A stretch of DNA of 64,000 bases. It comes from Bdellovibrionota bacterium (GTDB taxonomy: Bacteria > Bdellovibrionota > UBA1018 > CAUJDS01). The notes beneath the pieces were generated by a model, which worked only from the letters and a program-made list of their open reading frames with translations, did no database searches and was not told where the DNA came from. How positions within the stretch are numbered: the stretch's first letter is position 1; each line of letters begins with the position of its first letter. The DNA lies in assembly GCA_963169695.1 (NCBI GenBank), contig CAUJDS010000026.1:2168-66167 (forward strand), in the 5' to 3' direction. This document shows positions 43,900-62,796 of the stretch, one piece after another. A program made the translations under genes and the position numbers.

Positions 43900-45437
43900 A
43901 TGCAGCGAAAAAGAAGCAGAGAGCAATCATTATTGGAAGTGGCTTTGGTGGATTGAGCGCAGCAATCCGGTTACAGTCGCAAGGTTTTGACACCGTACTG
44001 CTTGAACAACGGGACAAAGCTGGTGGACGGGCCTACGTCTACGAGCAAGACGGATTCAAGTTTGATGCAGGACCAACGGTCATCACGGCACCAGACGCTT
44101 TGGAAGAACTATTTTCTTTGAGCGGAAGAAAGATGAGTGACTATGTTGAACTTCAGTCACTCGATCCGTTCTATCGGCTTCTTTGGCATGATGGGACGAC
44201 CTTTGATTATTCCAATGATGAAGATTTTCTATTGTCCCAGATTCGGGATAGAAATCCCGGCGACGTCGATGGTTATTTGAGATTTCTGGAATACAGCAAA
44301 GAAGTTTTTCGCGAAGGCTACGAAAAACTCGGAACAGTGCCTTTTTTGAATTTCTGGTCGATGATCAAAGTCGCTCCCCAATTGATGAAGCTCAGTGCCC
44401 ATCGTTCGGTTTATTCGATTGTTTCAAAATACATCCAGGATCCTTATTTGAGAGAGGCGTTTAGTTTTCATTCGCTTTTGGTGGGTGGAAATCCATTTCG
44501 CGCCTCTGCTATCTATACACTCATTCATTACTTGGAGAGGAATTGGGGCGTCCATTTTCCTAAAGGTGGTACGGGCGCACTTGTCGGCGGAATGGTTAAG
44601 CTCTATCAAGATGTGGGAGGGCGTCTCCTGCTCTCAACTTCCGTTGAGCAAATCTTAGAAGAAAATGGAAGAATTGTTGGAGTCAAAACGCGTTCGGGAG
44701 AAACACTGAATGCCGACCTGGTGGTGTCCAATGCCGATGTCCACTACACGTATAATCACTTACTCAAAGACTCAAAGCTTGCCAAGCCTCGAGCCAAGCG
44801 CCTCAATAACATGCACTACTCGATGTCGTTGTTCTTGATCTATTTTGGAACCAAGAAGCAGTATCGAGGAAAGTTCTGCCATCACAATGTCATTTTTGGA
44901 CCCCGGTACCGAGGGCTTTTGAAGGACATTTTTATTCGTGGAAAGTTGGCGGACGATTTTTCGCTCTACCTTCATTCACCGACTCTCACGGATCCAAGCC
45001 TAGCTCCTCCAGGTTGCGATACTTTCTACGCACTTTCTCCAGTGCCCCATCTGGGTAAGAATCCAATGGATTGGAATAAAGCGGGAGAGGAATACGGCGA
45101 TCGCATTTTGAAATTTCTAGAAGATCAGTACATGCCAGATTTGAAGAATCAGATTGTGACGAAGCGCATTTTTACGCCTTTGGACTTTAAGGATCAGCTT
45201 AGCGCGCACTTAGGGAATGCTTTTTCGCTTGAGCCGCTCCTGACACAAAGTGCCTACTTCCGGCAACACAATCGTGATGACAAGATCGCCGGCCTTTATT
45301 TTGTCGGTGCAGGAACCCATCCGGGAGCAGGGATTCCGGGCGTGGTAGGTTCTGCCAAAGCGACAGTGAATACTATTATTGAAGACCAGCAAAGAAGTGG
45401 TGAAGCATTCTTGGAGGGAACTCTTGCGCCGACTTGA
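43896..45437 (+). CDS. crtI: Phytoene desaturase (CrtI type)
   Basis: IIIGSGFGGLSAA dinucleotide fold and C-terminal GLYFVGAGTHPGAGIPGV. ATGA overlap with crtY. Confidence 0.9.
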   Translation: MNAAKKKQRAIIIGSGFGGLSAAIRLQSQGFDTVLLEQRDKAGGRAYVYEQDGFKFDAGPTVITAPDALEELFSLSGRKMSDYVELQSLDPFYRLLWHDGTTFDYSNDEDFLLSQIRDRNPGDVDGYLRFLEYSKEVFREGYEKLGTVPFLNFWSMIKVAPQLMKLSAHRSVYSIVSKYIQDPYLREAFSFHSLLVGGNPFRASAIYTLIHYLERNWGVHFPKGGTGALVGGMVKLYQDVGGRLLLSTSVEQILEENGRIVGVKTRSGETLNADLVVSNADVHYTYNHLLKDSKLAKPRAKRLNNMHYSMSLFLIYFGTKKQYRGKFCHHNVIFGPRYRGLLKDIFIRGKLADDFSLYLHSPTLTDPSLAPPGCDTFYALSPVPHLGKNPMDWNKAGEEYGDRILKFLEDQYMPDLKNQIVTKRIFTPLDFKDQLSAHLGNAFSLEPLLTQSAYFRQHNRDDKIAGLYFVGAGTHPGAGIPGVVGSAKATVNTIIEDQQRSGEAFLEGTLAPT

Positions 45438-46437
45438 AGTATGGTCGCGAGAGGTCTTAGCCAAAGGATCGAAGAGCTTTTCTTTTGGTGCTTGGTTTTT
45501 TTCGAAAGACCGGCGAATTGGAGCTTCGCTTCTTTACGTTTGGTGTCGCACCAGCGACGATGCGGTTGATCAACTTGAGAGTTGGTCCAACACGGATGAA
45601 CGCAGGGCTCGACAGCTCGAGAACATTTTGAGCCTTCGAAGAAATACTTTATCCGCCTACCAACCTCCTGTGACGGGAGGCATGGAATTTGAAGCCTTTG
45701 CCTACCTAGTTGAAAACTACCGATTGCCCCAGCACTACCCCCTAGAATTGCTTGAAGGTCTTCGAATGGACACGGACCTGCAGACCTACGAAACCCTGGA
45801 GGACCTTCGCCTCTATTGTTACCGAGTTGCGGGAGTGGTGGGATTGATGATGAGTCACATTATGGGCGTCAGTGACGAACGTGCGTTGGCAAGTGCCTGT
45901 CGGATGGGCTGTGCGATGCAGTTGACCAATATTGCCCGGGACGTTTTGGATGATGCCAAAATGGGTCGATGCTACCTTCCGAAGGAATGGTTGCGAAAGC
46001 GTGGCGTGGATCCCGAAAAAGTGGGTGATAGTGAGAATCGCCGTGCCGTTTTTGAAGTGGTGAAGGAGCTATTGGACCACGCAGACCATTGGTATTCCGA
46101 AGGTCGCAAAGGAATGAAATACCTCCCGTTGCGGTCTTCTTGGGCTATCGCGATCGCTTCGCGTGTTTATCAACAGATTGGCAATGTCATTCGTTCGCGC
46201 GGAGAAAAAGCTTGGGACAGTCGAAGCTATGTACGCTTTCCAAGAAAAATAAGAGAAGCACTTCGCGGTACCTTGGATCTTTTGCCTCAGATGGCGACGC
46301 GGTTTCAAAAACCTTGGAAGGAAGTCCCTATTTCCGAGATTTGGCTTTTTTCTTCAGATCTCGAAAAGCATTCAGAAAATACTTTGGATGAACCACCAAC
46401 ATCCCAAAGTTCTTACCGCCATACTTCCCTGTATTGA
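45379..46437 (+). CDS. crtB: Phytoene synthase
   Basis: GSKSFSF, YVWCRTSDDAVD (DxxxD), YCYRVAGVVG and LTNIARDVLDD motifs. The start is uncertain (TTG 45379, GTG 45397/45400, TTG 45424), and every option overlaps the crtI 3' end. Confidence 0.88.
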   Translation: MKTSKEVVKHSWRELLRRLEVWSREVLAKGSKSFSFGAWFFSKDRRIGASLLYVWCRTSDDAVDQLESWSNTDERRARQLENILSLRRNTLSAYQPPVTGGMEFEAFAYLVENYRLPQHYPLELLEGLRMDTDLQTYETLEDLRLYCYRVAGVVGLMMSHIMGVSDERALASACRMGCAMQLTNIARDVLDDAKMGRCYLPKEWLRKRGVDPEKVGDSENRRAVFEVVKELLDHADHWYSEGRKGMKYLPLRSSWAIAIASRVYQQIGNVIRSRGEKAWDSRSYVRFPRKIREALRGTLDLLPQMATRFQKPWKEVPISEIWLFSSDLEKHSENTLDEPPTSQSSYRHTSLY

Positions 46438-47439: not shown

Positions 47440-48687
47440 ATGGACGATAAGCGGGATCTTTTTACCAAGTGCTTTGAGTATGATGAACCAAAAAAGGTAA
47501 AGGCTGCAGGGGTTTATCCTTACTTCCGAGCCATTGGTGCCACCGAAGGACCCAGGGTCCTTTGCCAAGGCAAAATGAGAGTCATGATTGGTTCCAATAA
47601 CTACTTAGGACTTACTCATGACGCACGTGTTAAGCAGGCTGCAAAGGACGCCATAGACAAGTACGGAACCGGCTGTACTGGATCTCGTTTTTTGAATGGC
47701 AATCTAGAGCTCCACGAAGAGCTTGAGCGGCGGCTTTGCGCCTATTTAGGCAGAGAGTCCTGCCTTATTTTTGCGACGGGTTTTTTGACCAATCAGGGTG
47801 TTTTGTCCTCTCTGGTTGGACGCCGAGATGTGATCTATAGCGATCGAGAGAATCATGCTTCTATTTTTGAAGGTACCCGTGCTGCAATCGGCAAAACGAT
47901 TAAGTACCGCCACAGTGACTATGATGATCTCAAGCGAATCCTAGAAACCACTCGAGGGGACTTCGATGGCGCATTGATCGTCACAGATGGCGTTTTTTCA
48001 ATGTCTGGAGAAATTGCGGATTTGCCTGCCCTGGTAAAATTAGCTCGCGAGTATCAGTGTCGACTTTACGTCGATGACGCGCACGCACTAGGTGTTTTGG
48101 GACCGCAAGGACAAGGTACCGCCAATCATTTTGGGATTACAGAAGGTGTCGATATCGTGATGGGTACCTTCTCCAAGTCCTTTGCATCCCTTGGCGGATA
48201 CGTAGCAGGATCGCGGGACGTTATTGATTATATTCGGCACAAGGCTCGCCACTTTATCTTCAGTGCGGCGATGCCACCGGCGGCTGCAGGCACGGTGCTT
48301 GAGTGTTTGGAAATTATTCAAAAAGAACCAAACCATTTAGAGAACCTCTGGAAGAACACCAAGTTGATGCGCACACGGCTCAAGTCATTGGGATTCAATA
48401 CGCTTGGTAGTCAAACTCCCATTATTCCATTGGTGATAGGAGACGACCGGGCAGCGTTTGCGTTTACGCAGCAGCTTTTTGAAAATGGTGTGTTTGCTAC
48501 GCCGGTGATCAGTCCAGCCGTACCAGAAGGTTCAGCCTTGATTCGTACAAGCTATATGGCGACCCATACGACGGAAGATTTGACCTATGTACTCGAGACC
48601 CTCGAGCGGCTTGGCAAGGAGTTTGGCGTGCTGGGACCCAATCGAATTTATGGGGCAGTGCGAGCGTCCGCAGAAGCAGGAGCTTAG
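47440..48687 (+). CDS. Alpha-oxoamine synthase, serine palmitoyltransferase-like
   Basis: PLP-lysine box GTFSKSFASLGGY, DDAHALG, SNNYLGL. GSRFLNGN, RHFIFSAAMPP and LIRTSYMATHT resemble Sphingomonas SPT blocks (GSRMLNGT, RPYIFTASLPP, LLRCSICAEHT). No bio genes are nearby. Confidence 0.8.
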   Translation: MDDKRDLFTKCFEYDEPKKVKAAGVYPYFRAIGATEGPRVLCQGKMRVMIGSNNYLGLTHDARVKQAAKDAIDKYGTGCTGSRFLNGNLELHEELERRLCAYLGRESCLIFATGFLTNQGVLSSLVGRRDVIYSDRENHASIFEGTRAAIGKTIKYRHSDYDDLKRILETTRGDFDGALIVTDGVFSMSGEIADLPALVKLAREYQCRLYVDDAHALGVLGPQGQGTANHFGITEGVDIVMGTFSKSFASLGGYVAGSRDVIDYIRHKARHFIFSAAMPPAAAGTVLECLEIIQKEPNHLENLWKNTKLMRTRLKSLGFNTLGSQTPIIPLVIGDDRAAFAFTQQLFENGVFATPVISPAVPEGSALIRTSYMATHTTEDLTYVLETLERLGKEFGVLGPNRIYGAVRASAEAGA

Positions 48688-48692
48688 CAAAG

Positions 48693-49838
48693 ATGCAATT
48701 CGATATTCGCCGTGTGGATAGTGCCAACGGCTGGAAAGACTTTATTCAAGTCCCCTACGACCTCTATCGCAATGATCCTATTTGGGTTCCACCCTTGAGA
48801 ATGATGATGAAGGACCTTCTGAATCTCAAGAAGAATCCTTTTTTTAAGCACGCTACTATTCATGCGCTTGTGGCCTACGAAGGAGACAAGCCAATTGCGC
48901 GTATTGCAGGTGTGATTGACGAAAATCACAATAAGTTTCACAAAGATCGCGTGGGCTTCTTTGGCTTCTTTGAGTGTCCCAATAATCCCCAGCTCGCCGC
49001 AGAGTTGCTCAATCGGGTCAAAGTCTGGCTGAAGGAGTGGGGAATGGACGCCATGCGTGGACCCATGAATCCCACCGTCAACCATGAGTGCGGTTTGCTT
49101 ATCGAAGGTTTCGATGACTCGCCTTTTTTGATGATGACTTACAACCCGCCTTACTATCAGTCTCTGCTAGAGGGCTATGGGCTGAAAAAGACTCGTGACA
49201 TGTTTGCGATCAATATTCACGGCACAGAACAATTTGATGACCGGATGGTTGCCCAAGCTGAGCGGCTTCGGCAAAGAAGCGATGTGAGTTTCAGAACCAT
49301 TCGAATGAAGGAAGTTTACCAAGAGGTTCAAAAGATCATCACCATCTTCAATGATGCTTGGAGTGACAATTGGGGCTTCGTCCCAATGAATGATGAAGAA
49401 ATTAAAAAGTTTGCTGATGAATTGAAGCTGATCGTCGACCCAGAGCTGATCTTGTTTGCCATGGTAAAGGGCAAGGAGGTTGGATTTGGCGTGGGCCTTC
49501 CGGATGCGAATCAGGTTTTCAAAAAAATCCCTGATGGTAGGTTATTCCCCTTCGGAATTTTTAAGCTGCTTTGGTTCCTAAAAGGCCCAGGAAAACGAAG
49601 TGCAATCAATCGATGTCGAATTCCCATTTTGGGAGTCCTCAAAGAATACCAACCTCTCGGAATTGGACCTCTTCTCTATCTGGAATACTACAAAAGAGGT
49701 CCTGCCAATGGATATCCCATTGGAGAAGCATCTTGGATTCTGGAAGACAATGCAGCCATGTTGAAGGCCGCTGAAAAAATGAAGGGTCGAAAATCAAAGA
49801 CCTATCGTGTTTATGAACAACCATTGGGAAGTGCCTGA
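48693..49838 (+). CDS. GNAT-fold-like acyl/acetyltransferase family protein (uncharacterised ~380-aa family)
   Basis: Starts 5 nt after the SPT-like stop. Conserved blocks are DPIWVPPL, GFFGFFEC, MRGPMNP..NHECGLLIEGFD and MMTYNPPYY. Function is not established. Confidence 0.6.
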   Translation: MQFDIRRVDSANGWKDFIQVPYDLYRNDPIWVPPLRMMMKDLLNLKKNPFFKHATIHALVAYEGDKPIARIAGVIDENHNKFHKDRVGFFGFFECPNNPQLAAELLNRVKVWLKEWGMDAMRGPMNPTVNHECGLLIEGFDDSPFLMMTYNPPYYQSLLEGYGLKKTRDMFAINIHGTEQFDDRMVAQAERLRQRSDVSFRTIRMKEVYQEVQKIITIFNDAWSDNWGFVPMNDEEIKKFADELKLIVDPELILFAMVKGKEVGFGVGLPDANQVFKKIPDGRLFPFGIFKLLWFLKGPGKRSAINRCRIPILGVLKEYQPLGIGPLLYLEYYKRGPANGYPIGEASWILEDNAAMLKAAEKMKGRKSKTYRVYEQPLGSA

Positions 49839-53587: not shown

Positions 53588-54232
53588 CTAAAACAGTCGC
53601 ATCATCTTGTAAGCGACCAAAGCGCCCATGATTTGTGCGAGAATAAATCCCAAAGATCCTGTCCAGAGTATTCCCGAGAATGTGTCTGTTAGACACCGAG
53701 CCACGGTGACGGCTGGATTGGCGAAGGAAGTGGAAGAAGTAAACCAGTATGCAGCCATGACGTAAGCGGCGATGGCAAACGGGGTTGCGCCTACGTTCTT
53801 TTTTCCAGCAAGTGAAATAACAACAATAAGTCCGAACGTCGCGACTACTTCAGAAAAAATAAAACGGAAGCCGCCTCTATCGCGAGACGAAAATTGGAGG
53901 AGTCTTTGCCCAAACATGGCGTGGGTAACGAACACGCCCACGATAGCGCCAGAAAGCTGCATCATGACGTAACCTAAAAGTTCCTTTATCGTTAGCCTTT
54001 TCCAGAGCCACTCGACAAGACTAACAACCGGATTAAAATGTGCTCCAGATACACCCGAAAAGCATTGAATCAAAGCGTATAGAGCCGCTCCGGTTGCGAT
54101 GGAGTTTGCCAAAAGAGCAATCGCAAGATTGCCTTGTGCAAGAGCCTCCCCCATAATGCAGGAGCCGACTACGGCGATGAGCAATCCAGCCGTACCTATA
54201 AACTCAGCAAGCATTCGCTTTCGCAGGTTCAA
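53588..54232 (-). CDS. MIP-family aquaglyceroporin (AqpS-like arsenite channel)
   Basis: Two half-repeat signatures, HFNPVVS (NPV) and FANPAVTVARC (NPA). Six TM helices. Last gene of the ars operon, with a 4-nt overlap with arsC. Confidence 0.85.
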   Translation of the reverse strand: MNLRKRMLAEFIGTAGLLIAVVGSCIMGEALAQGNLAIALLANSIATGAALYALIQCFSGVSGAHFNPVVSLVEWLWKRLTIKELLGYVMMQLSGAIVGVFVTHAMFGQRLLQFSSRDRGGFRFIFSEVVATFGLIVVISLAGKKNVGATPFAIAAYVMAAYWFTSSTSFANPAVTVARCLTDTFSGILWTGSLGFILAQIMGALVAYKMMRLF

Positions 54233-54645
54233 ACATCGATCTCCGACTTGAATGCATTCAGTCGCTCCGAAATAGCATCCCGGGCAACTCGAAAGCGAGT
54301 GAGAGCTTCAGAATCAGAAGATGTCTCCTTCGTTGCGGGGTCCGTCTGAGGCCAATGGAGCTTCTTCGCTTTGGAAACTAATATGGGACAAACTTCTTCT
54401 GCGCAAAGAGTGATGACGTAGTCCAGGTCAGCAATAAATAGAGGTGAAAGGTCGTCGACGCTCTTCGAATAATGGTGCGAGATGTCTATACCAATCTCTC
54501 CCATAGCTGTGACCGCGTATGGATTCAGTTTTCCGGGATGAGATCCCGCACTTTCAATTTCCGCATTAGGAAATAATTTCTTAGCAAGACCTTCAGCGAG
54601 TTGGCTGCGAGCTGCGTTGGCAACGCAAATGAAGAGTATTTTCAT
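54229..54645 (-). CDS. arsC: Arsenate reductase, LMW-PTPase (thioredoxin-coupled) type
   Basis: P-loop ICVANAARS (Cys7...Arg13-Ser14), downstream Cys81/Cys86 and DYVITLC. Confidence 0.85.
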   Translation of the reverse strand: MKILFICVANAARSQLAEGLAKKLFPNAEIESAGSHPGKLNPYAVTAMGEIGIDISHHYSKSVDDLSPLFIADLDYVITLCAEEVCPILVSKAKKLHWPQTDPATKETSSDSEALTRFRVARDAISERLNAFKSEIDV

Positions 54646-54651
54646 GGCAAA

Positions 54652-55104
54652 CTACCCGCAACAGCTAGATTTGGAGTCATCAGGAGCGCAGCAATCGGAC
54701 TCGCTGTCATCAGTTTTGGATACATCTTTGTTACTGAAAACATCCGCATCAGCCATGCTTTGGTAAGCCTCCCATGGCACTCCCGCCGGGTCGGATACCC
54801 AAGCCTTATTGGAAGTAGCGTAACAGCAGGTCGTTTCACCCTCATCGTAAACCCCTAAATCCGCATTTTTTAGGCGTTCAGTTATTTCGCTCAATTCTGC
54901 GACAGAGTCTACCTGCATGCCAAGGTGGTTGACTCCTACATCATTGGTCCTTGTCGAAATAGCGAAGTTAATGCGCGGATCTTCAAGCATCCACTTGGCA
55001 TAGTCTTCCTTAAGCTTGCTTGGCTGTTGACCAAAGAGCGTAGAATAGAATTGAACAGATTTGTTGATGTCCTTTACGCCGACATGAATATGAAATCGCT
55101 TCAT
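54652..55104 (-). CDS. arsI: ArsI/CadI family VOC metalloenzyme (candidate C-As lyase)
   Basis: MKRFHIHVGV (His5), NHLG (His60), vicinal Cys pair in ETTCCYA (Cys93-94) and PWE (Glu112). These match the ArsI His-His-Glu/Cys-Cys layout (H5, H62, E115, C96-C97 in Bacillus ArsI). There is an extra tail ...SDCCAPDDSKSSCCG. The ATG at 55104 lies 2 nt after the arsR stop. Confidence 0.65.
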   Translation of the reverse strand: MKRFHIHVGVKDINKSVQFYSTLFGQQPSKLKEDYAKWMLEDPRINFAISTRTNDVGVNHLGMQVDSVAELSEITERLKNADLGVYDEGETTCCYATSNKAWVSDPAGVPWEAYQSMADADVFSNKDVSKTDDSESDCCAPDDSKSSCCG

Positions 55105-55106
55105 TA

Positions 55107-55439
55107 CTAACACTTCCTTTTTGGAGTTGAGGCCTTGCTGGACTTAGAGTCTTGTTCACGAACGCAGCAGTTTTCTTTCAGGTAGCCGATCAGCTGCTCG
55201 ATCAAATCGGTATTTGCAAAATAGGTTACTGAGCGGCCACTCTTCTCTGACGTAACAAGTCCTGCCTTGCTCATGTGCGAGAGATGAAAAGAAAGGGTGT
55301 TATCAGGGATCTTCAACTCTTCGGCGATCTTGCCAGGAATGATTCCGTCACTACCGTACTGGATCAGTAGTTTGAAAACCCTAAGTCGTGTTTCCTGCGA
55401 CAGTGAGGAGAAGGCCTCCGAGGCTTCATGCATTTCCAT
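55107..55439 (-). CDS. arsR: ArsR/SmtB family metalloregulator (C-terminal Cys type)
   Basis: wHTH (RLRVFKLL...LSFHLSHMSKAGLV). There is no CVC in helix 3. Cys91-Cys92 and Cys110 lie near the C-terminus, as in the Acidithiobacillus-type ArsR. Confidence 0.8.
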   Translation of the reverse strand: MEMHEASEAFSSLSQETRLRVFKLLIQYGSDGIIPGKIAEELKIPDNTLSFHLSHMSKAGLVTSEKSGRSVTYFANTDLIEQLIGYLKENCCVREQDSKSSKASTPKRKC

Positions 55440-57816: not shown

Positions 57817-57971
57817 GAACTCCCACCCCCTTAGTGCCTACCGAACCTATTTCAAGCCCAAAGGGATGACAAGCAATCCAGATAAATAATCAATGATCGC
57901 AATGCGTTATCACTCATGGCGATAAAGATTTCTTTCAGTAAAGTCGAAAGGTTGAGCACAGGAGACCTGTC

Positions 57972-59681
57972 ATGAGCGTAATGAGCAAGGCTATACGACC
58001 CAAGCGATTTCAACTAAGGAAGCAATCGGGAGTGCGATTCTTTGTCGAATCTCGTACAGGAACGCGGTTTGATCTGCGGCTCGACAATTGTTCCTTAACA
58101 GGACTCGGAGCGACATGTGATGACCCAAAATTAAACCAAACCATTGCCGAAGAACTCGCAGCCAGTGAATTGGTACCTGCCGGAAAAATTTCATGGACGG
58201 ATCACGAATACGCGCTCGGTCGCTTAGTAATTCGTAACATTAAGAAATTAGAATCTGGTGAGGTGTACGTAGCACTTTCTACTGTAGACTCCAAGGTTCC
58301 ACTTGATGGGCCTTTGAGTCAGTTCTTAGAAGTGACGGACTCCAAAGAAATCAATCCCTTTGAATTTGAATTGAGTCCCGAGCGATTCTCACTTGCTGAC
58401 TTTGCAGAAAACCAAGCCATGAATACGGACCTCTTTGCCAAGTGCAAGCAGTACTCCATTTTCTTCAGGGAATGGAAGGATAGTCCCAAATTTTTATACC
58501 ACTCAATACGAGAGCCATCGATGGGCACTCGCGTGCACTTAAAGAAATCTCGAAAAAGTGGCCGTCAAGACTACATCATTATGGGATCTAATGATTACCT
58601 TGGACTTGCTTCTCACCCTAAGGTCATGGAAGCAGCAAAAGCGGCCATCAATCTCTATGGATTTGGTGCAACGGGTTCGCCCTTGACCACGGGAATCTCT
58701 GAAGAGCACGAAAAGCTCTGCGATCAGCTTTCAAGAATCTTTAAGAAAGAGCAGACGATTCTTTTCAATTCTGGGTATGCAGCCAATATTGGAGCGATTC
58801 AAGGAATTACTAGCGGTCAAGACCTCGTAGTATCTGACATGCTCGCACATGCTTCGATTCAAGATGGCATGCAGATGTCGAGGGCAACGTCGCGATTCTT
58901 TAAGCACAATAATATGGCCCACCTTGATAAGGTACTGGCGGAGAATCGATCTCAGTATTCGGGATGTATCGCCATTACAGAGGGCGTATTCTCAATGGAT
59001 GGCGACGTACCTCCATTGCGTGACTTTGTCGACATTGCCAAGAAGCACAAAGCAAGAACCTTCGTGGATGAGGCGCATAGCTTTGGTGTGGTGGGTCCGA
59101 AAGGCTTGGGTGCCTGCGATCAGCATCGAGTCACGGACCGTGTGGATATGGTGATGGGGACCTTCTCGAAGATCGCAGGTGGAATCGGCGGATTTATATC
59201 CACCAGCAAGGATGTTGCCGATTGGCTCTTTATGTTTGCACGGGCACATATGTTTTCGGTTTCCATTCCGCCCTCCACCGCGGCTGCTGCCTATCAAGCG
59301 ATTCAGCTATTTCTGGACGATGCAAGCTTGGTACAGAATCTTCATCGCAATATACACCACTTCGTAAAAGGCCTGAGAGAGTTGGGCTATCCAGTCAAAG
59401 AAAATCACGAGAGTGCCGTAGTACCCGTAGTGATTGGGGATGAAGCCAAGCTCGGCGTGATGAACCAGTACCTTCAAGAAAAGGGAGTATTTGTTGTACC
59501 GATCGTCTATCCGGCCGTAAGTCGAAAAGCGTGTCGCTTTCGCTTTACGGTTACCTCGGGCCATCAGATTTCGGACTTGGACTATGTTCTCAATGTCTTT
59601 GGACAAGCACTAGAAAAAGCTGATGTGCAGTTCGAAGAATTAGACAAAACCAAACTGAAAAATGTGGATAACGCGGCTTAA
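57972..59681 (+). CDS. PilZ-domain / alpha-oxoamine synthase (PLP, BioF/KBL/SPT/CqsA superfamily) fusion protein
   Basis: aa 12-16 RFQLR (RxxxR) and aa 39-44 NCSLTG ((D/N)xSxxG) at canonical PilZ spacing. aa ~195-569 form a full AOS core (SNDYLGL, DEAHSFG, GTFSKIAGGIGGF). AGGAG RBS before the ATG. Confidence 0.8.
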   Translation: MSVMSKAIRPKRFQLRKQSGVRFFVESRTGTRFDLRLDNCSLTGLGATCDDPKLNQTIAEELAASELVPAGKISWTDHEYALGRLVIRNIKKLESGEVYVALSTVDSKVPLDGPLSQFLEVTDSKEINPFEFELSPERFSLADFAENQAMNTDLFAKCKQYSIFFREWKDSPKFLYHSIREPSMGTRVHLKKSRKSGRQDYIIMGSNDYLGLASHPKVMEAAKAAINLYGFGATGSPLTTGISEEHEKLCDQLSRIFKKEQTILFNSGYAANIGAIQGITSGQDLVVSDMLAHASIQDGMQMSRATSRFFKHNNMAHLDKVLAENRSQYSGCIAITEGVFSMDGDVPPLRDFVDIAKKHKARTFVDEAHSFGVVGPKGLGACDQHRVTDRVDMVMGTFSKIAGGIGGFISTSKDVADWLFMFARAHMFSVSIPPSTAAAAYQAIQLFLDDASLVQNLHRNIHHFVKGLRELGYPVKENHESAVVPVVIGDEAKLGVMNQYLQEKGVFVVPIVYPAVSRKACRFRFTVTSGHQISDLDYVLNVFGQALEKADVQFEELDKTKLKNVDNAA

Positions 59682-59698
59682 AGGAGATGTGAAGCTTT

Positions 59699-61558
59699 TT
59701 GGAAGCATTTGCGATTCGGTTTCTTATGGCTATTTCTAGCTTCCTTGGGGTGCAACCTCTTCCAACGGTTCTGTCCAATGGTTGGACTATTTCTCATTCC
59801 TGGCAGCCTTATGAATATGGGTATCAAGCAACGTTGAACTCAGACACGCTCTTGGCGGAGTGTGCTACTCAGCCAGACGCCCACTTTGTTTTTCCTTCCG
59901 TTGTTCACTCCGCGCATCGCCTTTTTGTAGACGGAAAGTTGGCTTTCTCGGAGGGCGATACAGCCTTTAAGAAGGTTCGTTCATTCTATGGAGTCCCTGA
60001 GCTAGCATGTAAGGACCTTCCCGCAGGAAAGATTCTGACCTGGCAAATTTATTCCTATTCGCGATATTTTGCCCGCCTACAGTTTCTTCCGTACCTACAG
60101 AAAGAGCCTTCCCGCGGGAACCTATTCTACGAATCGCTTAATGCCATTGCAGGCGGTACGCTTCTCGTATTGGGTCTGTTCTTCTTGATTATTTTCTACG
60201 GCAAGGTCCAGCGACCTCTGGCGCTTTCTTTCTCGCTTTCGAATTTTCTTTGGTCGGGCTATTTTTTAGGATCCGTCCCGGGCTTCTTCGGCTTTGATCT
60301 TACGATGCTTCAAATGCATCGAATTGCAGATTTTGGAGTTCATTTAGGCACGGTGCTTTTTGCCAATTCCCTTAGGCACGAAGGATTGATTGGATCACGA
60401 ATATTTTGGACCTATCTTACGAGCACCTTCATTGCTTTGGCCATTCTTGTTGTTGGTGCCAGTGGTGACGTCCTTCAGTTTGGAACCACGCTTCCGTTTG
60501 GATTTGCGTTAGCCTTCTTTCTAGTTGCGATTGCGCGCCTCACGCGCGACTCCATTAAAAAGCGATTGACTCGTTCTTCGCTCTTGCAACTTGCCAGTCT
60601 TGGAATTTTTGTAGCTGCCATCGTCAATGATATTCTTTCTATCACGGGTGTCACCAATCGAGTGATGATCTTGTCCTTAGGTGTGGTGGGAGGCTTGCTT
60701 TTCTTTGCTGTGTCTATCAATGAAAAAATCTCTGAGGCTTTCCGCGAGCGCGACTATTTGCGTACGAATCTTGAGACTGAAGTTCAACAGAAGACCAAAG
60801 CACTCACGACGACGCTTTCGGACCTGAAAGCGACCGAGGCTGAATTGATTCAAAGTGCTAAGCTCGCATCCTTGGGTACCTTGGCAGCGGGAATAGCGCA
60901 CGAGATCAATAACTCACTCAACTACGTCAACGGATCAATCAAACCCTTGGAGAAAGAGCTCCAAAAGATTGCCAAGCCAGAGGACATGGGCAAAGTCATC
61001 AAACTATTTACAACGATGAAAGAGGGCTTGAGCCTTACTTTCGACATTATTCGTAGCCTAAAAAATTACACTGGTCTCAACCAAGCCAAGTTCAATGATG
61101 TGGAAGTGCAGACCATTGTGACTTCTGTTATGGCCATTCTACGCAGCCGACTCAAAGAAGGATTTGATCTCCAGGTCAAAATTGAACCAGGACTTAAGCT
61201 CTTTGGAAGTATCGTAGGGCTGAATCAGATCTTTATGAACCTCATCAACAATGCCATCGATGCCATGCCTCAAGGTGGGCGACTCTTGATTGAAGCCTAT
61301 TCGGAGGCCAAGGGTGTGGTGGTCAAAATTTCTGATACCGGATCCGGCATGTCCCCAGAAACCTTAGCGCGCGTATTTGAGCCATTCTTTACGACCAAGG
61401 AAGTTGGAAAAGGTACGGGCCTTGGCCTTCATATCGTCAAGACTGAGTTGGAGCGCCATCACGCAACCATCGCAACTCAATCAGAACCCGGAAGAGGAAC
61501 AGAATTTCTTCTTAAGTTCCCAGGCGAGACCCCATTCTACGAGAAGGAGGCCGCATGA
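59699..61558 (+). CDS. Sensor histidine kinase with extracytoplasmic domain and 7 TM helices (7TMR-DISM-like)
   Basis: ~140-aa N-terminal non-membrane domain, 7 predicted TM helices, H-box AAGIAHEINNSLNYV, N-box NLINNAIDA, G-boxes DTGSGM and GTGLGL. No receiver domain. Start is TTG 59699 (AGGAG upstream) or ATG 59726. Confidence 0.85.
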   Translation: MEAFAIRFLMAISSFLGVQPLPTVLSNGWTISHSWQPYEYGYQATLNSDTLLAECATQPDAHFVFPSVVHSAHRLFVDGKLAFSEGDTAFKKVRSFYGVPELACKDLPAGKILTWQIYSYSRYFARLQFLPYLQKEPSRGNLFYESLNAIAGGTLLVLGLFFLIIFYGKVQRPLALSFSLSNFLWSGYFLGSVPGFFGFDLTMLQMHRIADFGVHLGTVLFANSLRHEGLIGSRIFWTYLTSTFIALAILVVGASGDVLQFGTTLPFGFALAFFLVAIARLTRDSIKKRLTRSSLLQLASLGIFVAAIVNDILSITGVTNRVMILSLGVVGGLLFFAVSINEKISEAFRERDYLRTNLETEVQQKTKALTTTLSDLKATEAELIQSAKLASLGTLAAGIAHEINNSLNYVNGSIKPLEKELQKIAKPEDMGKVIKLFTTMKEGLSLTFDIIRSLKNYTGLNQAKFNDVEVQTIVTSVMAILRSRLKEGFDLQVKIEPGLKLFGSIVGLNQIFMNLINNAIDAMPQGGRLLIEAYSEAKGVVVKISDTGSGMSPETLARVFEPFFTTKEVGKGTGLGLHIVKTELERHHATIATQSEPGRGTEFLLKFPGETPFYEKEAA

Positions 61559-62796
61559 AGCCTATTCTCTACTATGTAGATGACGATGCCCATAACCTCA
61601 CCGTATTTGAAGCTTCCTTGCCGGATGAATGGGAGATCAAAACCTTCTCCAATCCCTTGAAGGCGCTCGAAACTTTAGACAAGGATAAGCCATGGGTCAT
61701 TGTGGCTGACCAGCGCATGCCGGGGATCAAGGGCGTGGACTTTCTTGAGATTGCAAAGAAGCTGACACCTCACTCGGTACGAATCATTGTGACTGGATAT
61801 TCCGATGAGGACTTGGTGATTGAGACCGTTCGCAAGGCTCAGGTCTTTGATTACATTCGCAAGCCTTGGGATACCGATGATCTCGTAGCTCGTATGCAGA
61901 AGGCTGTTGAGTTTTATACGATGAGTCGCGAGAAGGAGAAGCTCTTCGAAACGCTTCTCCAACGTGAAAAGGAATTAAAAACAAAAAACGATGAATTGAC
62001 CACGCTCTCGAAGCAATTAGAGGACTCCAAAAAGCAAGAAGAAGGTATGCGCAAAGAACTTGAATGCTGGGTCCCGCCTTTTGTGCTCCTCGCACTTAAG
62101 GAAAATAAGATTCAGTTTCCGGCCAAGCGAGACTTGGTTTGTGTGACATTTGATATCATCAACAGCAACGAAATCCACGGCACAGAAGTGAATGGCAGGA
62201 CGCTAAGAAGCATAGTGATTCAAAGTTTTTCGGAGTCCATCATTCGCCATGGCGGTTGGCGCGAAAGTCACTCCGGCGACTCCGCCTATGGTCATTTTGG
62301 ACTGATTGATGGAGTAGGAAATCCCTACGAAGCCGCCCTTGCTGTGGCGCGCGAGTTTCGGGTATCGCTGCGAAGTCTTTCTATGGTTCATGATGTACAG
62401 ATCGAATGTGGTATCGCCCTCCATGTGGCCAGGGATTGTACCGTAGATGTACATCAAGTTCAGCTTGTCACTCCTTCTGGCGTCATGACTCAGAAATCCT
62501 TCGATACGACTTCGGTAGGAGTAGATCTCGTCCATCGAATGGAGAAGTTGGTCCACGAATTGAAAGGCACCAACATCATCCTTTCTACAGCGTTCTATGA
62601 TCAGTTAGAGAAGCCACCCAAACAAGCCAACCTGCTTGGTGCTCACCTCTTCAAAGGACAGACCGAAGCCGTGGGTCTGTACTTAATTGCCAGCGACCTC
62701 CTATCGGATGAGGACATCCATGCCTTCGCACAGAAGCTTACTGGCCCGGCAGAAAATGCCGAGGAGTCCGGCGTCGTCGAAAAAAAGGTAGCTTGA
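61555..62796 (+). CDS. Response regulator: REC - coiled coil - class III nucleotidyl cyclase-like domain
   Basis: REC motifs DDD(9-11), D52 (VIVADQRMPG), K103 (IRKPW). aa ~193-378 align by eye with the cyclase homology domain (VTFDI, HGGW..SGDSAYGHFG, CGIALH, VGVDLVHRMEKL, LFKGQTEAVGLYLI). ATGA overlap with the kinase stop. Confidence 0.8.
   Translation: MKPILYYVDDDAHNLTVFEASLPDEWEIKTFSNPLKALETLDKDKPWVIVADQRMPGIKGVDFLEIAKKLTPHSVRIIVTGYSDEDLVIETVRKAQVFDYIRKPWDTDDLVARMQKAVEFYTMSREKEKLFETLLQREKELKTKNDELTTLSKQLEDSKKQEEGMRKELECWVPPFVLLALKENKIQFPAKRDLVCVTFDIINSNEIHGTEVNGRTLRSIVIQSFSESIIRHGGWRESHSGDSAYGHFGLIDGVGNPYEAALAVAREFRVSLRSLSMVHDVQIECGIALHVARDCTVDVHQVQLVTPSGVMTQKSFDTTSVGVDLVHRMEKLVHELKGTNIILSTAFYDQLEKPPKQANLLGAHLFKGQTEAVGLYLIASDLLSDEDIHAFAQKLTGPAENAEESGVVEKKVA

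What the first reader, a model, noticed from the sequence alone, without database searches (positions are those of the whole stretch)
57972..62796. Three-gene module: PilZ-fused alpha-oxoamine synthase + 7TM sensor kinase + REC/cyclase-like regulator (candidate c-di-GMP-gated small-molecule signalling system)
ORF 57972-59681 carries a complete PLP-dependent alpha-oxoamine synthase (AOS) core behind an N-terminal ~190-aa extension that bears both PilZ c-di-GMP-binding signatures.

Its stop is followed by AGGAG and, 18 nt later, a histidine kinase with an extracytoplasmic domain and 7 TM helices. The kinase stop overlaps (ATGA) the start of a REC-coiled-coil-cyclase-like response regulator, so the three genes look like one operon.

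Established knowledge: AOS-family enzymes encoded next to a cognate membrane kinase define alpha-hydroxyketone quorum sensing (CqsA/CqsS in Vibrio, LqsA/LqsS/LqsR in Legionella).

Inference: this locus could make and sense an AOS-derived amino-ketone or lipid signal. Synthesis would be gated by c-di-GMP through PilZ, and the output would run through a second nucleotide-cyclase-like domain. I do not know of a characterised PilZ-AOS fusion.

Caveat: by eye the AOS core (GTFSK lysine box) looks more like BioF/KBL/SPT than CqsA, so the product class is open. It could instead be a regulated second SPT-like lipid enzyme.
Basis: partly seen in the sequence, partly recalled or inferred. Interest (0 to 1): 0.85.

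Follow-up and report, generated by a model that had tools for sequence, protein, structure and literature searches.

The report
PilZ-fused amino-ketone synthase signalling operon
A three-gene operon found across the predatory-bacteria phylum Bdellovibrionota joins a likely second-messenger (c-di-GMP) sensor domain to a PLP-dependent enzyme that makes amino-ketones, next to a membrane sensor kinase and a cyclase-like response regulator; no such c-di-GMP-controlled enzyme turned up in the literature I could search.

Summary
All three ORFs, the AGGAG after the first stop and the ATGA overlap are present.

**Enzyme (gene 1).** It has an intact alpha-oxoamine synthase (AOS) core. Its N-terminus, which Pfam does not recognise, models as a PilZ beta-barrel, and the top ~28 PDB fold hits are nearly all PilZ domains.
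- The [D/N]hSxxG motif is conserved across relatives.

**Kinase (gene 2).** It is a divergent 7TMR-DISM-type histidine kinase.

**Regulator (gene 3).** It is REC, then a coiled coil, then a class III cyclase fold. Both metal-binding Asp residues are kept. The transition-state Asn is invariantly Asp.

**Conservation.** The trio keeps the same order in all 12 related loci with enough sequence, including Oligoflexus tunisiensis, Bdellovibrio qaytius and a Pseudobdellovibrio genome. The flanking genes are not conserved.

**What it is not.** The AOS forms its own clade. It passes no BioF, KBL, SPT, ALAS or CqsA cut-off, and CqsA scores lowest. The locus is therefore not a Cqs/Lqs family member, though it could work like one.

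**Verdict.** This is probably a second-messenger-gated amino-ketone or lipid synthase coupled after translation to a two-component system. Ligand, product and direction of coupling are untested. I rate it a new variant of known kinds.

The parts
57960..57964 (+). Shine-Dalgarno AGGAG upstream of the PilZ-AOS start codon (ATG 57972)
   Evidence: Sequence read directly. The N-terminus aligns with the N-termini of 50 homologues.
57972..58286 (+). Divergent PilZ domain (aa 1-~105). Invariant R9 and R12 (RxxR-h-x-h). Motif [N/D]39-h-S41-x-x-G44.
   Evidence: AF2 pLDDT 89.1 with a beta-barrel at residues 8-104. Foldseek PDB top hits are MrkH, YcgR, PP4397, Alg44, BcsA, PlzA, PA0012 and MotI. Motif conservation across 51 sequences. 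Pfam PilZ matches 7 of 43 relatives weakly. The family profile reaches bona fide PilZ proteins at E about 3e-4 to 1e-3.
58287..58412 (+). Conserved linker (aa 106-147) between PilZ and the AOS, with the ELSPxKFSLAxF motif (F139 invariant)
   Evidence: Alignments A1 and A2. Short helices in the AF2 model. The stand-alone AOS paralogue aligns only from residue 153.
58413..59681 (+). Alpha-oxoamine synthase core (aa 148-569) of an unassigned subfamily. PLP-lysine K400 in GTFSK. H293, D366, H369, R522 and R524 are invariant.
   Evidence: Pfam Aminotran_1_2 4e-47. NCBIfam bioF, KBL, SPT, ALAS and CqsA models all score below their cut-offs. PDB matches to KBL, SPT, BioF and ALAS at about 1e-60 to 1e-65, CqsA at 3e-32. 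Invariant columns. The family is monophyletic and outside the BioF clade.
59682..59686 (+). Shine-Dalgarno AGGAG directly after the AOS stop codon, 12 nt before the kinase TTG start
   Evidence: Sequence read directly.
59699..60133 (+). Kinase N-terminal signal or anchor plus an extracytoplasmic sensor domain (aa 1-~145). Invariant C55 and C104 (probable disulfide), W29, W35, and YS+YFAR.
   Evidence: Orthologue alignment A5. Hydropathy profile. No Pfam match.
60134..60718 (+). Multi-pass membrane block (aa ~146-340), seven predicted helices. Invariant polar residues H207, D211, D257, Q260 and N341.
   Evidence: Hydropathy gives five strong and two weaker segments. PF07695 7TMR-DISM_7TM matches 2 of 10 orthologues, best E=2e-5. 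Conservation.
60719..61558 (+). Kinase core: coiled coil and DHp with H401 (AHEINN), then HATPase_c with N, G1 and G2 boxes
   Evidence: HATPase_c 9e-25 and a weak HisKA match. NCBIfam AtoS/ZraS-type kinase cores. Invariant H401, N514, N518, D546, G548, G550 and G570-G576.
61555..61908 (+). REC receiver domain (aa 1-118). The start overlaps the kinase stop (ATGA).
   Evidence: Response_reg 3.7e-17. Invariant D9, D10, D52, T80 and K103. The overlap was read directly and a 4-nt kinase/regulator overlap (12 nt in Oligoflexus) recurs in all related loci checked.
61909..62124 (+). Coiled-coil linker (aa ~119-190)
   Evidence: Only weak coiled-coil-type Pfam hits such as OmpH and ZapB. Heptad-rich sequence.
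62125..62796 (+). Divergent class III nucleotidyl-cyclase homology domain plus a short tail. D200 and D242 are invariant (metal Asps). D324 replaces the transition-state Asn. R328 is kept.
   Evidence: AF2 pLDDT 89.9. Foldseek: CyaB 3r5g 2.8e-11 (TM 0.78), Cya2, CyaC, bPAC, Rv1900c and sGC. HMMER and hhalign place VD..R on the cyclase VN..R motif. Invariant columns. Pfam Guanylate_cyc matches only 3 of 52 relatives.

Best explanation
This is a self-contained signalling and biosynthesis operon, conserved in every Bdellovibrionota relative examined.

**Gene 1** encodes an active PLP-dependent alpha-oxoamine synthase. Such enzymes condense an acyl-thioester with an amino acid to give an alpha-amino-ketone. 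Its N-terminus carries a divergent PilZ domain. The residues that contact the dinucleotide in canonical PilZ domains are invariant here (two Arg, and [D/N]hSxxG). The domain therefore most likely still binds c-di-GMP or a close relative. It sits directly on the AOS N-terminal helix, so binding probably switches the enzyme on or off. This would parallel PilZ gating in cellulose synthase BcsA.

**Genes 2 and 3** are a cognate two-component pair. The kinase is a 7TMR-DISM-type membrane protein with a disulfide-containing outer domain. The regulator's output is a cyclase-like domain rather than a DNA-binding domain.

The regulator cannot bind DNA, and the three genes are never separated. The link between the two-component pair and the enzyme must therefore be chemical or protein-level. 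My preferred version is that the AOS product, or a derivative of it, is the ligand or feedback signal of the kinase. This resembles the Cqs/Lqs logic. Synthesis would additionally be gated by the cell's c-di-GMP state.

**Shown:** the domain folds, the catalytic and phosphorelay residues, and the synteny.
**Inferred:** nucleotide binding, gating, the class of product, and the direction of coupling.
For: - ORFs and translational coupling are confirmed.
- The PilZ fold is confirmed. R9, R12, N/D39, S41 and G44 are invariant or nearly so across 51 homologues.
- The family profile reaches true PilZ proteins, and PilZ is the most frequent weak Pfam hit among relatives.
- The AOS catalytic set is invariant: K400, H293, D366, H369, R522, R524.
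- The kinase H, N, G1 and G2 boxes and the REC acid pocket are invariant.
- The regulator output has a class III cyclase fold, and no DNA-binding domain was detected.
- AOS, kinase and regulator are syntenic in L001-L007, L010, L011, Oligoflexus tunisiensis L081 and Bdellovibrio qaytius L082. There is no other conserved neighbour.
- Even the most divergent member (L083, 39% identity) keeps PilZ-AOS, a kinase and a REC protein.
- A separate SPT-like AOS in the same window shows this gene is an extra, specialised paralogue.
Against: - The first PilZ motif is RxxR, not the canonical RxxxR.
- Pfam PilZ does not match the window protein, and a profile search of PDB sequences found no PilZ.
- No binding data exist.
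- The AOS is not CqsA-like, and the kinase is not CqsS-like. The quorum-sensing analogy therefore rests on gene adjacency alone.
- The product is unknown.
- The promoter and terminator scan gave nothing above chance.
Confidence: 0.55

Rival explanations
1. Linear one-operon cascade. The kinase phosphorylates the regulator. The regulator's non-canonical cyclase domain makes a nucleotide messenger. The non-canonical PilZ on the AOS binds that messenger and switches the enzyme. The two-component system would then control the enzyme rather than sense its product.
For: - The regulator has no DNA-binding output. It has a cyclase fold with both metal-binding Asp residues invariant and many other invariant polar residues.
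- Both the producer-like and the receiver-like domains deviate from their canonical motifs (RxxR in PilZ, Asn to Asp in the cyclase domain). They are strictly co-inherited in 11 loci plus the window.
Against: - As far as I know, class III cyclases make cyclic mononucleotides, and PilZ domains bind c-di-GMP.
- By eye, three canonical cyclase residues appear changed: the base-specifying Lys to Ser, the phosphate-binding Arg to Glu, and the transition-state Asn to Asp. Only the last is supported by a tool alignment.
- The divergent locus L083 keeps the PilZ motifs but its regulator is REC-only, with no cyclase domain.
Confidence: 0.15
2. Regulated membrane-lipid enzyme. The PilZ-AOS would be a second SPT-like enzyme making a sphingoid or other amino-lipid precursor for the envelope. 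The 7TM kinase would monitor envelope or membrane state. No diffusible signal would be involved.
For: - In the neighbour-joining tree the family sits nearer the SPT-like and unassigned AOS sequences than the true BioF clade.
- SPT structures are among the best PDB matches, at 2e-62.
- The kinase has a large membrane block with invariant polar residues buried in it.
- The genome already shows investment in lipid-type AOS chemistry through its SPT-like paralogue.
Against: - The SPT models score only about 300 bits, against cut-offs of 500-670.
- No ceramide synthase, reductase or other lipid gene is conserved beside the trio.
- A canonical SPT-like gene already exists elsewhere in the window.
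Confidence: 0.25
3. The PilZ-like domain no longer binds any nucleotide. It acts as a protein-protein adaptor, for example docking the regulator or the kinase onto the enzyme, as the non-binding PilZ proteins of Xanthomonas and Pseudomonas do.
For: - The arginine motif is RxxR, not the canonical RxxxR.
- The domain escapes Pfam.
- In L083 the partner regulator is a bare REC domain, which could only act by protein contact.
Against: - Non-binding PilZ domains described in the literature have lost the motifs (10.1101/814665).
- Here both arginines and the whole [D/N]hSxxG motif are invariant or nearly so across homologues that are only 26-46% identical in this domain. That pattern is the signature of a retained ligand site.
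Confidence: 0.15

Closest known systems
CqsA/CqsS (Vibrio) and LqsA/LqsS/LqsR (Legionella) alpha-hydroxyketone quorum sensing
   Same: - An AOS-superfamily PLP enzyme is encoded next to a polytopic membrane histidine kinase.
- As in Lqs, there is also a response regulator with no DNA-binding output, and the clustering is conserved (PMC3376566; synteny here).
   Different: - The AOS is not of the CqsA/LqsA type. The CqsA model scores lowest (217 against a 428 cut-off), and CqsA structures match at 3e-32 against 4e-65 for KBL.
- The kinase has a large extracytoplasmic domain and a 7TMR-DISM-like block rather than the compact CqsS sensor.
- The regulator output is a class III cyclase fold, and LqsR is not among the top 50 fold hits.
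- The synthase carries a PilZ domain.
- The phylum is Bdellovibrionota. The 2012 review describes AHK signalling as restricted to aquatic gamma-proteobacteria (PMC3376566).
PilZ-gated synthases BcsA (cellulose) and Alg44 (alginate)
   Same: A PilZ beta-barrel is fused in the same polypeptide to a biosynthetic machine. BcsA and Alg44 PilZ domains are among the fold hits. The expected logic is the same: dinucleotide binding releases or imposes inhibition.
   Different: - The partner is a soluble PLP-dependent C-C bond-forming enzyme, not a membrane polysaccharide synthase or co-polymerase.
- The PilZ is N-terminal.
- The arginine motif is RxxR.
- No such fusion appears in the PilZ survey I could read (10.1101/814665) or in my other literature searches.
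Bacterial serine palmitoyltransferase, BioF and KBL (stand-alone AOS enzymes)
   Same: Same fold and the same catalytic residues. All match at about 1e-57 to 1e-65.
   Different: - No equivalog cut-off is passed.
- The family forms a separate clade.
- It has a 147-aa regulatory extension.
- It is dedicated to a two-component neighbourhood, while a normal SPT-like paralogue sits 10 kb upstream.
7TMR-DISM sensor kinases (the RetS/LadS type; from my own knowledge) and REC-cyclase response regulators (class III adenylyl or guanylyl cyclases with receiver domains)
   Same: - The kinase has an extracytoplasmic domain, seven TM helices and a kinase core. PF07695 matches 2 of 10 orthologues.
- The regulator is REC, coiled coil and cyclase homology domain, with the metal-binding Asp residues kept.
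   Different: - Both are too divergent for Pfam to recognise in the window proteins.
- The cyclase domain has Asp in place of the transition-state Asn in every member. By eye it also lacks the base-specifying Lys and the phosphate-binding Arg.

Membership tests
PilZ domain (c-di-GMP receptor, PF07238) | Six-stranded beta-barrel PilZ fold | tested here: met
   AF2 pLDDT 89.1. The Foldseek PDB top ~28 hits are nearly all PilZ domains, with probability 1.00 and TM up to 0.68 on the target.
PilZ domain (c-di-GMP receptor, PF07238) | RxxxR motif before strand 1 | tested here: not met
   The invariant residues are R9 and R12, which gives RxxR followed by h-x-h. Position 16 is Lys in 29 of 51 sequences and Arg in 2 of 51. 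Both arginines are present but one residue closer together than in the canonical motif.
PilZ domain (c-di-GMP receptor, PF07238) | [D/N]hSxxG motif | tested here: met
   N/D39 in 49 of 51, hydrophobic residue at position 40, S41 in 50 of 51, G44 in 51 of 51. The motif definition comes from 10.1101/814665.
PilZ domain (c-di-GMP receptor, PF07238) | Match to the Pfam profile above the gathering score | tested here: not met
   No hit for the window protein even at E<=1. Seven of 43 relatives hit weakly, best 9.4e-4. The family profile reaches true PilZ proteins only at 3e-4 to 1e-3.
PilZ domain (c-di-GMP receptor, PF07238) | Binds c-di-GMP | not testable with these tools
   Needs DRaCALA, ITC or MST on the purified protein.
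Alpha-oxoamine synthase superfamily (PLP fold type I) | Aminotran_1_2 profile match and the PLP-lysine, His and Asp catalytic set | tested here: met
   PF00155 at 4e-47. K400, H293, D366, H369, R522 and R524 are invariant in 51 sequences.
BioF, KBL, SPT or ALAS (specific AOS enzymes) | Score above the curated equivalog cut-off, or nesting inside the clade | tested here: not met
   Scores against cut-offs: bioF 347/426, KBL 320/460, SPT about 300/500-640, ALAS 273/339. In the neighbour-joining tree the family is monophyletic and outside the sequences that pass the bioF cut-off. No true KBL, ALAS or CqsA reference sequences were in that tree.
Cqs/Lqs alpha-hydroxyketone quorum sensing | Autoinducer synthase of the CqsA/LqsA type | tested here: not met
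   NF005526 scores 217 bits against a 428 cut-off, the lowest of the full-length AOS equivalog models. CqsA structures match at 3e-32, against 4e-65 for KBL.
Cqs/Lqs alpha-hydroxyketone quorum sensing | CqsS/LqsS-type sensor kinase (compact polytopic sensor without a large outer domain) | tested here: not met
   This kinase has an extracytoplasmic domain of about 125 aa with two invariant Cys, followed by seven predicted helices. Orthologues hit 7TMR-DISM_7TM. I made no direct sequence comparison with CqsS.
Cqs/Lqs alpha-hydroxyketone quorum sensing | Synthase gene clustered with its cognate kinase (and regulator) | tested here: met
   The same order is kept in 12 of 12 related loci with enough sequence.
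Cqs/Lqs alpha-hydroxyketone quorum sensing | The kinase detects the synthase product | not testable with these tools
   Needs genetics and chemistry.
7TMR-DISM receptors | 7TMR-DISM_7TM profile (PF07695) and a 7TMR-DISMED outer domain | tested here: inconclusive
   PF07695 matches 2 of 10 orthologues (best 2e-5) but not the window protein. No DISMED profile hit was found. Hydropathy and topology are consistent with seven helices.
Class III nucleotidyl cyclase (CHD) | Cyclase homology fold | tested here: met
   Foldseek: CyaB 2.8e-11 (TM 0.78), Cya2, CyaC, Rv1900c (TM 0.82) and sGC.
Class III nucleotidyl cyclase (CHD) | Full catalytic set: two metal Asp, base-specifying Lys/Asp, transition-state Asn/Arg, phosphate Arg | tested here: not met
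   D200, D242, D317 and R328 are kept. The Asn position is an invariant Asp (D324). By-eye alignment to the family consensus puts Ser at the Lys position and Glu at the phosphate-Arg position; this last part is inference.
Two-component system | Kinase H, N, G1 and G2 boxes, and the REC phospho-acceptor pocket | tested here: met
   H401, N514, N518, D546xGxG and G570xGxG are invariant. D9, D10, D52, T80 and K103 are invariant.

The most novel reading that the evidence does not exclude
Bdellovibrionota, including predators, may carry a private chemical-communication or feedback circuit. In it, a c-di-GMP-gated (or other dinucleotide-gated) AOS makes a new amino-ketone or lipid signal. A dedicated 7TM kinase senses that signal. 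The kinase's regulator then emits a non-canonical nucleotide from an altered class III cyclase domain. This would be a closed loop joining quorum-type signalling, c-di-GMP and a second nucleotide messenger in three genes.
Probability: 0.15. Interest if true: 0.9.

Novelty: new variant of a known kind. Interest (0 to 1): 0.7.

Why it matters
- **A new target class for c-di-GMP.** PilZ domains are known to gate polysaccharide synthases, flagellar motors and transcription factors. A PilZ fused to a PLP-dependent carbon-carbon bond-forming enzyme would extend c-di-GMP control to small-molecule or lipid biosynthesis.
- **Invisible to standard annotation.** Every relative is labelled only as an aminotransferase, BioF or KBL, so this class is currently missed.
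- **Relevance to predatory bacteria.** The strict linkage to a sensor kinase and a cyclase-like regulator, in both classes of Bdellovibrionota sampled here, points to a dedicated signalling chemistry. The papers retrieved here report an unusually large set of PilZ proteins in Bdellovibrio (15-18 predicted), most without assigned partners (PMC3271064, PMC9140294).
- **Directly testable.** There are cultured hosts (Oligoflexus tunisiensis, Bdellovibrio qaytius, Pseudobdellovibrio sp. HCB154) and clear point mutants to make (R9A, R12A, S41A, K400A, D52A).

Tried and rejected
**Searches that found little or nothing**
- A word-index homology search with the N-terminal 194 aa alone found one fragment. 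The family only appeared when I searched with the full-length protein.
- A profile of the N-terminal domain against PDB sequences found no PilZ. Only the fold search did.
- The search for related loci with the N-terminal alignment failed because it had no conserved stretch to search with.
B. bacteriovorus HD100 itself was therefore not checked.

**Leads that did not hold**
- I suspected the regulator output might resemble LqsR. LqsR is not among the top 50 fold hits, so I dropped the idea.
- hhalign against an Oligoflexus TPR-cyclase protein was weak (E=0.0016, probability 16%), and that reference is itself degenerate.
- The sigma-70 promoter and terminator scan gave no more than chance.

**Literature**
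- Rotem et al. 2016, the Bdellovibrio c-di-GMP interactome paper, is not held.
- A search for "BioF" matched "biofilm" and was useless.
- Searches pairing PilZ with AOS or SPT terms returned only papers by authors named Pilz.

**Limits of the tree**
- Two AOS ORFs (in L050 and L049) failed NCBIfam labelling because they carry in-frame stop codons.
- The AOS tree lacks labelled KBL, ALAS and CqsA references.

Full report
**1. The observation**

AGGAG lies 8 nt upstream of the first ATG. The first stop, TAA, is immediately followed by AGGAG and then by the TTG at 59699. The kinase stop and the regulator start overlap as ATGA. The TTG start is credible because the N-termini of nine orthologues align to it. 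Base composition is uniform across the window, so nothing suggests a recent insertion.

**2. Gene 1: the enzyme**

Pfam finds only Aminotran_1_2 (residues 200-542, 4e-47) and no PilZ, even at E<=1 on the isolated N-terminus. NCBIfam ranks bioF (347 bits), KBL (320), BioF/Kbl-related (320), SPT (about 300), ALAS (273) and the CqsA type (217). Every score is below its curated cut-off.

Against solved structures, KBL, SPT, BioF/KBL and ALAS all match at 1e-57 to 1e-65, whereas CqsA matches at 3e-32. The protein is thus roughly equidistant from the classical AOS enzymes and far from CqsA.

A full-length search found at least 120 sequence clusters of 550-590 aa. They are 46-59% identical with 97-100% coverage. 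The named ones come from Bdellovibrionota, Oligoflexales, Oligoflexus, Pseudobdellovibrio and Bdellovibrio qaytius. None carries a precomputed PilZ annotation. In a 51-sequence alignment the PLP-lysine (K400 in GTFSK) and H293, D366, H369, R522 and R524 are invariant, so the enzyme should be active.

**3. The N-terminal extension**

Across the family, R9 and R12 are invariant. N/D39 is present in 49 of 51 sequences, S41 in 50 of 51 and G44 in 51 of 51, with a hydrophobic residue at position 40. This reproduces the [D/N]hSxxG motif and the R-h-x-h context described for canonical PilZ domains (10.1101/814665). The arginine pair, however, is RxxR rather than RxxxR.

An AlphaFold2 model of residues 1-160, built from 43 sequences, has pLDDT 89 and shows a beta-barrel over residues 8-104. 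Foldseek against the PDB returns almost exclusively PilZ domains in the top ~28 hits: MrkH, YcgR, PP4397, Alg44, BcsA, PlzA, PA0012 and MotI.

Sequence-level links are weak but consistent:
- The family profile, searched against 1.84 billion representatives, finds only 46 proteins. Most are this fusion family or fragments of it; the two weakest hits I checked are true PilZ proteins.
- PF07238 is the most frequent weak Pfam hit among relatives, at 7 of 43.

A stand-alone AOS paralogue aligns from residue 153. The true extension is therefore about 147 aa: PilZ plus a conserved linker.

**4. Gene 2: the kinase**

HATPase_c is clear, and the core resembles AtoS/ZraS-type kinases. Ten orthologues share the following features:
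- an N-terminal hydrophobic segment;
- an outer domain of about 125 aa with two invariant cysteines;
- a membrane block with invariant polar residues;
- an intact H box (H401) and N, G1 and G2 boxes.

Hydropathy gives five strong and two weaker helices. Two of the ten orthologues match 7TMR-DISM_7TM, best E=2e-5. I read this as a divergent 7TMR-DISM kinase, not a CqsS-like sensor.

**5. Gene 3: the regulator**

REC is clear, and D9, D10, D52, T80 and K103 are invariant. At least 120 full-length homologue clusters exist. Many have the same longest-contig length as an AOS cluster, for example 772519, 573002, 341237, 286985, 117480, 101887 and 60977. That indirectly indicates the two genes lie on the same contigs.

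The C-terminal 228 aa model with pLDDT 90. They match class III cyclases: CyaB at 2.8e-11 with TM 0.78, then Cya2, CyaC, bPAC, Rv1900c and sGC. Pfam Guanylate_cyc is seen in only 3 of 52 relatives.

- D200 and D242, the metal-binding Asp residues, are invariant.
- The transition-state Asn is an invariant Asp (D324), and the Arg is kept (R328).
- By eye, against the family consensus as I remember it, the base-specifying Lys is Ser and the phosphate-binding Arg is Glu. That part is inference.

No DNA-binding domain was detected.

**6. Conservation of the trio**

tblastn and ORF clustering show AOS, kinase and regulator in the same order and on the same strand. The kinase/regulator overlap is 4 nt in every case but Oligoflexus (13 nt). 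This holds in L001-L007, L010 and L011, in Oligoflexus tunisiensis (L081) and in Bdellovibrio qaytius (L082). No flanking gene is conserved.

The most divergent family member (L083, 39% identity) still has RLKRY and NISPIG motifs, a downstream kinase and a regulator. That regulator is REC-only, without the cyclase domain.

A neighbour-joining tree, with clades labelled by NCBIfam, shows the family as monophyletic. It lies outside the sequences that pass the bioF cut-off, and nearer to SPT-like and unassigned AOS sequences. The same window also holds a stand-alone SPT-like AOS at 47440-48687, so the fusion is an additional, specialised paralogue.

**7. Mechanism**

Shown:
- a catalytically intact AOS bearing a PilZ-fold domain whose ligand-contact residues are conserved;
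- a cognate, intact kinase and receiver pair;
- a cyclase-fold output domain;
- strict three-gene linkage.

Inferred:
- The PilZ domain binds c-di-GMP, or a related dinucleotide, and gates the enzyme through the adjoining N-terminal helix.
- Because the regulator cannot bind DNA, its coupling to the enzyme must be chemical or protein-level.

I favour a Cqs/Lqs-like logic, in which the product feeds back on the kinase, with c-di-GMP gating on top. The rivals are:
- a linear kinase-to-cyclase-to-PilZ-to-enzyme cascade, weakened by L083 and by the mismatch between known class III cyclase products and known PilZ ligands;
- a regulated envelope-lipid enzyme;
- a PilZ domain that no longer binds a ligand and serves as an adaptor.

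**8. Comparison with known systems, and novelty**

The locus is not a member of the Cqs/Lqs family, because neither the synthase type nor the sensor type is met. It shares that family's genetic logic (PMC3376566). It resembles BcsA and Alg44 in having a PilZ domain fused to a synthase.

I rate this a new variant of known kinds, of considerable interest. Function remains wholly untested.

Noticed in passing
window 47440-48687 (+), with 48693-49838 downstream: A stand-alone 415-aa AOS paralogue. Its best NCBIfam match is the CFB-type serine palmitoyltransferase (512 bits, below the 640 cut-off). It is 32% identical to the PilZ-AOS core. An unannotated 381-aa ORF follows it, then ruvC, an unscanned 201-aa ORF (ruvA by position) and ruvB. 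This suggests the organism also makes sphingolipid-like lipids.
   Followed up: partly
window 44001-46437 (+): A phytoene desaturase family gene (crtI) and a phytoene synthase-like gene (crtB), which together suggest a carotenoid pathway, lie upstream of the SPT-like gene.
   Followed up: no
L085:6001-7848 (protein P0284): A 615-aa protein with PilZ-like domains fused to a FeeM-type N-acyl amino acid synthase/GNAT domain. It sits beside a branched-chain amino-acid ABC transporter and Lgt. It is one of the only two proteins outside the AOS family shown to carry a Pfam PilZ domain that the N-terminal profile reached (E=2.9e-4), and a second case of PilZ fused to an acyl-amino-acid enzyme.
   Followed up: partly
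L083:160-4068: The most divergent PilZ-AOS (39% identity, PilZ motifs kept). It is followed by a kinase and a 171-aa REC-only regulator with no cyclase domain, and lies next to resolvase and transposase genes.
   Followed up: partly
L049:6526-7800 (L050:9833-12193 failed the same way; L072, untested, is L049's near-identical neighbour in the tree): The L049 and L050 AOS ORFs each contain two in-frame stop codons under translation table 11. L049 comes from an unclassified bacterial MAG, which hints at an alternative genetic code, or else at my own ORF extension; L050 (786 aa, from a Bacteroidetes MAG) looks over-extended.
   Followed up: no
window 59699-60133 (kinase outer domain): Two invariant cysteines (C55, C104) and a YS+YFAR motif define an extracytoplasmic domain with no Pfam match. 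Invariant H207, D211, D257 and Q260 lie within the membrane block.
   Followed up: partly
protein P0249: A 2344-aa protein with 32 short matches to positions 63-93 of the PilZ-family profile. It is probably a beta-hairpin repeat protein unrelated to this system.
   Followed up: no
window 53588-55439 (-): A cluster that looks like arsenic resistance: an ArsR-like regulator, a glyoxalase-like protein, an ArsC-like phosphatase and an MIP-family channel. I judged this from the translations only. It is unrelated to the trio and is not conserved beside it.
   Followed up: no
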